Shown here: positions 12,052 to 13,057 of the stretch, in pieces
How positions within the stretch are numbered: the first letter of the stretch is position 1
How the letters are laid out: the number at the start of each line of letters is the position of its first letter
Virus record (IMG/VR): IMGVR_UViG_2548876855_000021
Origin: a virus
Lineage: Duplodnaviria > Heunggongvirae > Uroviricota > Caudoviricetes
DNA length: 13,469 nt
Strand: one strand, 5' to 3'
The notes under the pieces: model-generated
Database searches by the model: none
The model's input: the letters and a program-made list of their open reading frames with translations, nothing else
Told to the model about the DNA's origin: nothing
Program-made: the position numbers and the translations under genes

Positions 12052-12668
12052 TATCTCACCGTCCAAATTACTTCACCATCATTAACCAAATGATGGCATA
12101 TTCCTTTTTTATCATTTGCTTCACATATTTTTGATAGTACTGAATGTGCAATTGGTGTCAGAACAGCCTGCTTCAAGACTGCATTACACCTAATAAATGC
12201 ATAATTATGGTCTTCATAAAAGACGGGTTCAATTGAAGATGAAATGTAACATTTCAATGCTTTGAATACATCATCTTTAAATACTTCGCGGACAAAAACC
12301 TCAAGCGAAGATGCAAAATAAAAATCATTTCTACTATTATTAAAGTGTCGTCTGTATGGATCATCAAGCTCTAAGAAAGAACTATAAGTTTTATTTCCAT
12401 GCTCTGAATAGGCTTGAAGCAGTGCATTAACATATACAGACTCTTTTTTTGAATTGTATGTTGGAATTTCATTTGGAGGGATTCTCACGACATACAGCTC
12501 GTTAAAGTACTTAAAATAAAGGTGTGTATTTGCAATATCATTTAAAATCAATGATAAGGGTAGAGAGTAAAAAATACTAAAATCAAAATCCTCAATATAT
12601 TTTTTTATTTCATCATCTAATGGAATATCAATCTTTTTAGTTATTTTTTTGAAATTGCTGAATCCCAT
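12051..12668 (-). CDS. Hypothetical protein of the cassette; possibly the C-terminal part of a nuclease-domain effector whose N-terminal part is the upstream ORF
   Basis: 205-aa ORF, ATG at 12668 with a weak ribosome-binding site, overlapping the upstream ORF by 28 nt in the -1 frame across an A7 tract. No motif recognised. Confidence 0.5.
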   Translation of the reverse strand: MGFSNFKKITKKIDIPLDDEIKKYIEDFDFSIFYSLPLSLILNDIANTHLYFKYFNELYVVRIPPNEIPTYNSKKESVYVNALLQAYSEHGNKTYSSFLELDDPYRRHFNNSRNDFYFASSLEVFVREVFKDDVFKALKCYISSSIEPVFYEDHNYAFIRCNAVLKQAVLTPIAHSVLSKICEANDKKGICHHLVNDGEVIWTVR

Positions 12669-13057
12669 GAATCAAGGACTGCTTTTTTAAGCTCGTTTTT
12701 ATTTTTCAATAAATTAGAAAATGTAGTAGATAAATCATAGGGTGCCACAAAAAAGTACTTCTGAGGGATGGGATAATCACCATTCAGAGTAAAATAGATA
12801 AGTTTTCCAAACTCAACTACAACATCAGAGAACCCTAAACTTTTTTTGTACAGTTTGCATTGATAATTATCCCAAGAATAACCTTCTACGTTAGGATCCG
12901 ATTTATATCCAACAACGTCTCTACCTTTATCTCCAGCTCCTCCCAAACGTTCGCTCCACGGGTAATCATCTGATTTACAGACAATAAGCCAATCATGGAC
13001 AAATACCTCCCATTGTTCATCATCCCATGTCAATATTTCCGAAAGTGGTTGAGACAC
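12641..13057 (-). CDS. Mrr-like (PD-(D/E)xK) restriction-endonuclease-fold domain protein
   Basis: 138-aa ORF with GTG start and a strong AAGGAG Shine-Dalgarno sequence 7 nt upstream. WEVFVHDWLIVCKSDDYPWSERLGGAGDKGRDVVGY followed by DNYQCKLY resembles the Mrr catalytic-domain pattern (GDGGIDG ... QCK) as I remember it. Confidence 0.55.
   Translation of the reverse strand: MSQPLSEILTWDDEQWEVFVHDWLIVCKSDDYPWSERLGGAGDKGRDVVGYKSDPNVEGYSWDNYQCKLYKKSLGFSDVVVEFGKLIYFTLNGDYPIPQKYFFVAPYDLSTTFSNLLKNKNELKKAVLDSWDSAISKK

What the first reader, a model, noticed from the sequence alone, without database searches (positions are those of the whole stretch)
12641..12672. Canonical -1 slippery heptamer A_AAA_AAA followed by UAA at the overlap of the Mrr-like ORF and the next ORF
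The Mrr-like ORF ends UCA AAA AAA UAA (coding strand, 12652-12641). The next ORF is in the -1 frame and overlaps by 28 nt, with a weak ribosome-binding site. A -1 slip on A_AAA_AAA would read AUA ACU AAA AAG and continue into the downstream ORF, giving a fusion of about 330 aa (nuclease domain plus downstream domain), similar in size to a Lamassu LmuA-type effector. A one-base insertion in the A7 tract would have the same effect, so programmed frameshifting, phase variation and sequencing error all remain possible.
Basis: partly seen in the sequence, partly recalled or inferred. Interest (0 to 1): 0.6.

Follow-up and report, generated by a model that had tools for sequence, protein, structure and literature searches.

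The report
One-base deletion splitting a Lamassu gene
The "slippery site" is where one A was lost from an eight-A run, splitting the effector gene of an already broken Lamassu anti-phage system in a P4-like prophage of E. coli O157:H7; it is an ordinary pseudogene, not programmed frameshifting.

Summary
On the minus strand the 138-aa ORF ends TCA AAA AAA TAA (12652-12641, A7 = 12650-12644). A 205-aa ORF in the -1 frame overlaps it by 28 nt. The two ORFs are the N- and C-halves of one LmuA effector: they match positions 10-140 and 141-333 of the same 336-position PADLOC profile.

The recoding interpretation is not supported. In 91 loci from other taxa LmuA is a single ORF of about 335 codons. 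These include 92%- and 86%-identical genes, the latter in a syntenic P4-like satellite. None conserves the heptamer; the closest read TCC AAT AAA ATA and TCA AAG AAA ATA. The gene alignment has one gap column, at this tract, so A8 became A7. The UAA and the downstream ATG are ancestral ATA-ACT and TCA-TGG codons read out of frame.

The partner gene LmuB carries a TTA-to-TAA nonsense codon and its own A6-to-A5 frameshift. There is no downstream RNA structure. A7 is present in all 308 complete O157:H7/O55:H7 genomes that carry the locus, so sequencing error and active phase variation are unlikely.

One loose end remains: the exact repaired protein occurs on 434 public contigs that I could not inspect.

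Interest is low.

The parts
12644..12650 (-). A7 run (T7 on the plus strand), the site of the one-base deletion from an inferred ancestral A8
   Evidence: It is the only gap column in the 1008-column LmuA DNA alignment.
12641..12652 (-). TCA AAA AAA TAA: the apparent slippery heptamer plus stop codon. It is ancestral TCA AAA AAA ATA ACT read after loss of one A.
   Evidence: Intact relatives encode S-K-K-I-(T/S) in one frame.
12641..13057 (-). LmuA N-terminal fragment (138 aa, Sakai ECs_0290), carrying the PD-(D/E)xK / Mrr-like nuclease domain
   Evidence: PADLOC LmuA PDLC03852 positions 10-140 of 336, E 9e-41. GAGDKGRD and QCK motifs are invariant in the family.
12051..12668 (-). LmuA C-terminal fragment as called (205 aa, ECs_0291). 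Only 12051-12644 is ancestral coding sequence. The ATG at 12668-12666 is TC-ATG-GG, lying across the Ser and invariant Trp131 codons.
   Evidence: PADLOC LmuA positions 141-333, E 4e-44. Pfam CTD6, E 8e-30. Alignment.
11593..12051 (-). LmuC (ABC-3C middle component 2, 152 aa), intact
   Evidence: Pfam MC2 E 5e-30. PADLOC LmuC E 3e-36.
9780..11600 (-). LmuB (SMC-like ABC ATPase) pseudogene, present in three pieces
   Evidence: The pieces hit PADLOC LmuB PDLC03863 at positions 3-199, 230-386 and 428-608 of 610. In-frame stops are shown. Sakai annotates it as a pseudogene.
10968..10970 (-). LmuB nonsense codon TAA, from TTA (Leu)
   Evidence: Relatives, L094 and L102 have TTT TTA AAA here; the window and Sakai have TTT TAA AAA.
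10404..10408 (-). LmuB frameshift: an A5 run that is A6 in intact relatives
   Evidence: DNA alignment. The intact Klebsiella aerogenes protein reads LEDKKYKTIHS across this site.
10432..10438 (-). Strain-specific extra A in LmuB (A7 here, A6 in Sakai and most O157)
   Evidence: It is the only difference between the window and Sakai over 5.2 kb. It is shared with ERL04-3476 and ERL05-1306.
13061..13415 (-). 3' remnant of the P4-type integrase intS, cut by IS629/IS1203
   Evidence: Pfam Phage_integrase. Annotation of the identical locus in ERL04-3476.

Best explanation
The feature is a fixed frameshift mutation. The window is the P4-like prophage Sp2 of E. coli O157:H7. Its defence hotspot, between the integrase and ogr/psu/sid, holds a three-gene Lamassu (ABC-3C) operon, LmuA-LmuC-LmuB.

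In the ancestor, LmuA was one 335-codon gene reading ...TCA AAA AAA ATA ACT... (S-K-K-I-T). Replication slippage removed one A from that A8 run. The old frame now reads AAA AAA TAA and stops at once. The rest of the gene is found by ORF callers only because TCA-TGG (Ser-Trp131) happens to contain an ATG in the new frame.

The same operon has lost LmuB through a nonsense codon and a second homopolymer deletion, so the whole system is decaying. Any full-length LmuA made today would come only from unprogrammed slippage at a fraction of a percent, and it would have no LmuB partner.

Shown: the lesion, its uniqueness to this lineage, the single-ORF state of relatives and the LmuB lesions. Inferred: A8 as the ancestral state, replication slippage as the cause, and loss of function.
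For: - Both halves hit one LmuA profile end to end, at positions 10-140 and 141-333 of 336.
- The joined protein aligns without a gap to 16 full-length homologues, with SKKIT matching their SKKIT/SKKIS.
- All 80 genome loci, and the loci, match across residues about 3-333 in one frame. The codon table shows no conserved slippery site.
- The closest intact relatives are Proteus mirabilis (92% aa) and P4-like satellites beside proBA in Pantoea alhagi and two Logan contigs (86% aa). The satellites have the same int-LmuA-LmuC-LmuB-ogr-psu-sid order. Each has a 1008-nt LmuA against 1007 nt in E. coli, with a single gap column at the tract.
- LmuB lesions are TTA to TAA and A6 to A5. No exact repaired LmuB exists among 15 billion proteins.
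- A7 is found in every one of the 308 complete genomes that carry the locus, and in 18 of 19 other contigs.
- The 104 nt after the site fold less stably than shuffled sequence (-7.9 against a mean of -11.75 kcal/mol, z = +1.32).
- In E. coli, heptamers without stimulators give only 2- to 10-fold over a 0.055% background (PMC4066793). A_AAA_AAA is much less shift-prone than A_AAA_AAG (PMC5009743).
Against: - The exact repaired 335-aa protein is recorded on 434 public contigs, so A8 alleles, or assemblies that show A8, exist. I could not inspect them.
- LmuC is intact and both LmuA fragments are free of further lesions in nearly all genomes. The lineage is too clonal for this to carry weight either way.
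- No expression or protein data were available.
Confidence: 0.9

Rival explanations
1. Programmed -1 ribosomal frameshifting on A_AAA_AAA yields a set ratio of a short nuclease-only product and full-length LmuA.
For: A formally canonical X_XXY_YYZ heptamer lies in the zero frame with the -1 frame open behind it. A stop codon directly follows it. A GGGA lies 12 nt upstream.
Against: None of 91 homologous loci from other taxa is split or conserves the heptamer. There is no downstream structure. A_AAA_AAA is a poor shifter in E. coli, and without a stimulator heptamers give well under 1%. The upstream GGGA is the conserved Trp-Asp codon pair. The partner gene LmuB is inactivated. Fifteen in-frame heptamers occur in this AT-rich operon.
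Confidence: 0.02
2. The A tract is a phase-variable switch (A7 OFF, A8 ON), or a reversible indel that is selected for.
For: The exact A8-encoded protein is on 434 contigs. Homopolymers are mutable. Other A runs in the operon differ by one base in single genomes.
Against: None of 308 complete genomes has A8, and none of 54 contigs read around the identical LmuC has a 335-aa LmuA. The one A8 contig I could read (L101) carries 20 homopolymer indels in 3.9 kb, so it is sequencing noise. The ON state would still lack LmuB, and no repaired LmuB is on record. As general knowledge, A7 is short for a contingency locus.
Confidence: 0.04
3. A sequencing or assembly error in this window produced a false A7.
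For: Homopolymers are a classic site of such errors. This window does carry one strain-specific homopolymer difference elsewhere.
Against: One search's evenly spaced listing showed 57 of 60 sampled records identical over the 131 nt around the tract. One search found one gap against an A8 query at best in all 309 matching records. These include Sakai and EDL933. Two food-metagenome contigs also have A7.
Confidence: 0.01
4. A compensated ('savior') indel: the deletion was selected to lower the dose of a toxic nuclease after LmuB was lost, with trace full-length LmuA made by ribosomal or transcriptional slippage.
For: The concept is documented for other genes (PMC5009743). In Lamassu, LmuA is held as a monomer by LmuB/LmuC and activated by tetramerisation (PMC12663957), so an unpartnered LmuA could plausibly be harmful.
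Against: Nothing needs it; neutral decay explains all the lesions. The order of the LmuA and LmuB frameshifts is unknown, and both occur in every copy examined. Transcriptional slippage is described for runs of 9 or more.
Confidence: 0.03

Closest known systems
Lamassu / ABC-3C defence systems with a PD-(D/E)xK (Mrr-type) LmuA effector, in the short LmuA-LmuC-LmuB layout
   Same: The gene order is the same, with overlapping genes. It has the CTD6 domain of LmuA, the MC2 domain of LmuC and an SMC-like LmuB of about 606 aa. PADLOC LmuA, LmuB and LmuC profiles all hit strongly.
   Different: Here LmuA is split by a one-base deletion, and LmuB is broken by a nonsense codon and a frameshift. It is a relic, not a working system.
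Intact orthologous operons: P4-like satellites beside proBA in Pantoea alhagi CP019706 (L112) and Logan contigs L113/L114; Proteus mirabilis (L110/L111)
   Same: LmuA is 86-92% and LmuB 75-87% identical. The satellites share the int-LmuA-LmuC-LmuB-ogr-psu-sid synteny.
   Different: There LmuA is one 335-codon ORF with TCA AAG AAA ATA or TCC AAT AAA ATA at the site, and LmuB is an intact 606 aa.
Bacterial programmed -1 frameshift sites (dnaX A_AAA_AAG; IS3/IS911/IS1 transposases)
   Same: A heptamer of the X_XXY_YYZ form with the downstream ORF in the -1 frame.
   Different: There is no conservation, no stimulatory hairpin or pseudoknot and no clear SD-like element. The heptamer is the weaker A_AAA_AAA, and the two-frame layout is confined to one clonal lineage.
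Homopolymer frameshift pseudogenes in horizontally acquired, AT-rich DNA
   Same: A loss or gain of one base in an A run; several such lesions in one operon; fixed in a clonal pathogen lineage.
   Different: Nothing material; this is the category it belongs to.

Membership tests
Lamassu (LmuA-LmuC-LmuB) | SMC-like ABC ATPase LmuB | tested here: met
   Homology is met: three pieces hit PADLOC LmuB PDLC03863 at positions 3-199, 230-386 and 428-608 of 610.
Lamassu (LmuA-LmuC-LmuB) | All three genes intact and able to encode full-length proteins | tested here: not met
   LmuA is 1007 nt against 1008 nt in relatives. LmuB has a TAA at 10968-10970 and an A6-to-A5 frameshift at 10404-10408.
Lamassu (LmuA-LmuC-LmuB) | Small middle component LmuC | tested here: met
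   Pfam MC2 E 5e-30 and PADLOC LmuC E 3e-36; an intact 152 aa.
Lamassu (LmuA-LmuC-LmuB) | LmuA made of a variable effector domain plus a conserved C-terminal domain | tested here: met
   CTD6 lies in ORF-C. The two ORFs together cover LmuA profile positions 10-333.
Lamassu (LmuA-LmuC-LmuB) | Protection against phage or plasmids | not testable with these tools
   This needs plaque assays with the native and repaired operons.
Programmed -1 ribosomal frameshift signal | X_XXY_YYZ heptamer in the zero frame with an open -1 frame behind it | tested here: met
   A_AAA_AAA at 12650-12644.
Programmed -1 ribosomal frameshift signal | Heptamer and two-frame layout conserved among homologues | tested here: not met
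   None of 91 loci from other taxa is split. Most carry non-slippery codons such as GAG ATC ACG.
Programmed -1 ribosomal frameshift signal | Downstream stimulatory RNA structure | tested here: not met
   MFE -7.9 kcal/mol against a shuffle mean of -11.75, z = +1.32; 189 of 200 shuffles fold at least as well.
Programmed -1 ribosomal frameshift signal | Upstream SD-like stimulator | tested here: inconclusive
   Only a GGGA 12 nt upstream, which is the conserved Trp-Asp codon pair.
Programmed -1 ribosomal frameshift signal | Measured trans-frame product | not testable with these tools
   This needs a reporter assay or mass spectrometry.
Phase-variable contingency locus | Tract length polymorphic among isolates | tested here: inconclusive
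   None of 308 complete genomes has A8, but the A8-encoded protein is on 434 contigs I could not inspect.
Phase-variable contingency locus | The ON state restores a working system | tested here: not met
   LmuB is broken in every copy examined, and the repaired LmuB is absent from the collection.
Mrr-like PD-(D/E)xK nuclease (Pfam PF04471) | Significant match to Mrr_cat | tested here: inconclusive
   ORF-N has no Pfam hit at E up to 0.1. Two of 17 aligned family members hit Mrr_cat, best E 6e-6. No PDB sequence relative was found.

The most novel reading that the evidence does not exclude
The A7/A8 tract is a reversible switch, or a compensated indel, that keeps a potentially toxic LmuA nuclease silent in O157:H7 while allowing rare restoration. 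On this reading the 434 public contigs that encode the exact repaired protein are real revertant sublineages.
Probability: 0.04. Interest if true: 0.4.

Novelty: already known. Interest (0 to 1): 0.08.

Why it matters
It matters little beyond annotation. ECs_0290 and ECs_0291, and their RefSeq equivalents (WP_000082144 and WP_001303996 in ERL04-3476), are annotated as two separate proteins. They should be annotated as one frameshifted LmuA pseudogene, next to the LmuB pseudogene that is already flagged.

Defence-system counts for O157:H7 should treat this Lamassu as non-functional. It is also a clear example of a decayed defence system in a P4-like satellite, which a recent survey reports to be rare (PMC13586616).

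It is a useful caution that 'canonical' slippery heptamers arise trivially when a homopolymer in AT-rich DNA loses a base.

Tried and rejected
- The phage collection holds no match to the operon.
- The first protein search found nothing closer than 67% identity. Closer intact relatives appeared only after searching with a repaired LmuB.
- The single A8 contig found by pattern scan (L101, IMG/VR) was rejected as evidence, because it carries 20 indels in 3.9 kb, almost all of one or two bases in homopolymer runs, in both directions.
- A profile search of the family against PDB sequences found nothing.
- I briefly considered stop-codon reassignment, because the three LmuB pieces lie in one frame in this window. 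I rejected it. The middle stops come from an out-of-frame stretch between two compensating indels, and the first stop is a TTA-to-TAA change that is absent from sister copies.

Full report
**1. The observation**

Read on the minus strand, the window shows GCA ATT TCA AAA AAA TAA CTA AAA AGA TTG. TCA lies at 12652-12650, the run of seven A at 12650-12644 and TAA at 12643-12641. The ORF list gives 12641..13057 (138 aa, GTG start) and 12051..12668 (205 aa, ATG start) on the minus strand. The second ORF is in the -1 frame relative to the first, and they overlap by 28 nt. The bases before its ATG carry no Shine-Dalgarno-like sequence. The description is therefore accurate.

The heptamer is not unusual for this stretch. 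The operon at 9780-13057 is 31% G+C, against 47% for the rest of the window. It holds 9 of the window's 15 A or T runs of seven or more bases. It also holds 15 in-frame X_XXY_YYZ heptamers, including two further A_AAA_AAA in the downstream ORF.

**2. What the genes are**

The window is the P4-like prophage Sp2 of E. coli O157:H7. The 3.4-kb operon region is at least 99% identical in 309 of 5,426 complete E. coli genomes, in O157:H7 and O55:H7. Sakai annotates the region as 'prophage Sp2, P4-like phage'.

On the minus strand the order is:
- an IS629/IS1203 end;
- a truncated integrase;
- the two ORFs in question;
- a 152-aa gene;
- a broken ATPase gene;
- then ogr/delta, psu, sid and the P4 primase.

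Pfam finds CTD6 of ABC-3C systems in the 205-aa ORF and MC2 in the 152-aa gene. PADLOC profiles identify LmuA, LmuC and LmuB of Lamassu. The 138-aa ORF matches positions 10-140 of the 336-position LmuA profile PDLC03852, and the 205-aa ORF matches positions 141-333 of the same profile. The two ORFs are therefore the two halves of one LmuA, and the break falls exactly at the A run.

**3. Homologues**

A search with the conceptually joined protein found 157 relatives. Nearly all are 324-381 aa long. The joined protein aligns with 16 of them without a gap, and its SKKIT at the junction matches SKKIT or SKKIS in the closest ones.

In 80 loci from representative genomes the match runs across residues about 3-333 in a single frame. 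Xenorhabdus, a JGI metagenome contig and Aeromonas all show intact operons of 334-337 aa, 151-154 aa and 604-609 aa. A codon table for the junction shows that most relatives have plainly non-slippery codons there, such as CGG ACC GAG ATC ACG. Only a few AT-rich ones have an in-frame A run, for example Aeromonas with TCA AAA AAA ATT.

A search with a repaired LmuB then found much closer relatives:
- Proteus mirabilis, with LmuA 92% identical.
- P4-like satellites beside proBA in Pantoea alhagi and in two Logan contigs, with LmuA 86% identical. They have the same order: integrase, LmuA, LmuC, LmuB, ogr, psu, sid.

In all of these LmuA is one 335-codon ORF, reading TCC AAT AAA ATA AGT or TCA AAG AAA ATA AGT at the site.

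A DNA alignment of the whole gene has 1008 columns and a single gap column. That gap is at the tract and occurs only in the E. coli sequences. The E. coli ancestor most likely read TCA AAA AAA ATA ACT, with A8, and lost one A.

This also explains the two features that made the site look designed:
- The UAA right after the heptamer is ATA-ACT read one base late.
- The ATG of the downstream ORF is TC-ATG-GG, spanning a Ser codon and the invariant Trp131 codon.

**4. State of the rest of the operon**

LmuB is in three pieces. Comparison with intact relatives shows three lesions:
- A TTA-to-TAA change at 10968-10970.
- An A6-to-A5 deletion at 10404-10408.
- In this strain only, an extra A at 10432-10438. 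It restores the frame but leaves three stops in the out-of-frame stretch between the two indels.

An intact Klebsiella aerogenes LmuB reads LEDKKYKTIHS across the second site, which confirms the reconstruction. Two copies (L094, L102) and 127 contigs lack the nonsense codon but still carry both frameshifts. The exact repaired LmuB is absent from a collection of about 15 billion proteins.

Three of the four lesions in the operon are changes of one base in A runs. In eight complete genomes IS629 has also removed the N-terminal half of LmuA. Lamassu needs LmuB and LmuC to hold and to activate LmuA (PMC12663957). A rejoined LmuA would therefore have no working partner.

**5.

*Programmed frameshifting.* No homologue conserves the site or the two-frame layout. 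The 104 nt downstream fold less stably than shuffled sequence (z = +1.32). In E. coli, heptamers without stimulators reach only 2- to 10-fold over a background of 0.055% (PMC4066793). A_AAA_AAA is much less shift-prone than A_AAA_AAG (PMC5009743).

*Sequencing error.* The 131 nt around the tract were identical in 57 of 60 records sampled at even steps down the ranking of 309 matching records, including Sakai and EDL933. A query carrying A8 found no perfect match in any of the 308 genomes that matched it.

*Phase variation.* The same result argues against it, as do 18 of 19 further contigs with A7. The only A8 contig I could read has 20 indels in 3.9 kb, almost all in homopolymer runs and in both directions. 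It is sequencing noise.

**6. The loose end**

The exact repaired 335-aa protein is recorded on 434 contigs from NCBI, Logan and ENA, the longest 1.88 Mb. The tool would not let me fetch them. The identical LmuC is listed in 14,929 blocks of the collection, so these contigs are at most about 3% of occurrences.

Other A runs in the operon also differ by one base in single complete genomes. LmuB has A6 to A7 in two genomes, and ORF-C has A7 to A6 at 12600-12606 in one. The most economical reading is sporadic neutral homopolymer change or assembly noise. A real revertant sublineage is not excluded.

**7. Verdict**

The reading that the two ORFs are halves of an LmuA-type effector is right. The suggestion of recoding is not supported. 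The feature is an ordinary pseudogene made by a one-base deletion, inside a decaying Lamassu operon of a P4-like prophage.

It is of small interest for annotation. It is also one of the defence-system pseudogenes in P4-like satellites that a recent survey reports as rare (PMC13586616).

Noticed in passing
window 2-63 and 13408-13469: The two ends of the window are a 62-nt inverted repeat, 95% complementary, and match IS629/IS1203 termini. The integrase is cut at 13415. The window looks like a contig bounded by two IS copies.
   Followed up: partly
window 10432-10438: This run is A7 here and A6 in Sakai and most O157:H7. It is the only difference from Sakai over 5.2 kb and is shared with the New Zealand strains ERL04-3476 and ERL05-1306. 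It puts the LmuB pieces back in one frame without restoring the gene.
   Followed up: yes
window 10968-10970; L094, L102: The LmuB nonsense codon is missing from a minority of copies: a 417-aa ORF is seen on 127 contigs. L094 sits directly beside proBA without prophage Sp1. The nonsense codon is therefore probably younger than the two frameshifts, which these copies still carry.
   Followed up: partly
proteins P0184, P0187 and other Salmonella-named members: Salmonella enterica assemblies, with contigs up to 0.9 Mb, carry a 188-aa LmuB C-terminal piece about 97% identical to the E. coli one. A broken copy of this operon may also exist in Salmonella.
   Followed up: no
H99 / L004 (strain 2159) and seven other complete genomes; window about 12681: IS629 is inserted inside LmuA, removing the N-terminal half and the integrase side. 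This is a further independent lesion in the same operon.
   Followed up: partly
window 12600-12606; H98 / L003 (NZRM4169): A second A7 run inside ORF-C is A6 in one complete genome, which RefSeq annotates as 'frameshifted'.
   Followed up: yes
window 492-1391 and 2067-3023 (plus strand): A LysR-family regulator and a 318-aa ORF with no Pfam match lie beyond the P4 primase, near the other end of the window.
   Followed up: no
L110 and L112 gene calls: In Proteus (NCBI record) and Pantoea alhagi, the gene caller reports only 145-aa and 201-aa LmuA products. tblastn nonetheless shows an uninterrupted 335-codon frame with a GTG start. These are start-codon miscalls, not splits.
   Followed up: yes
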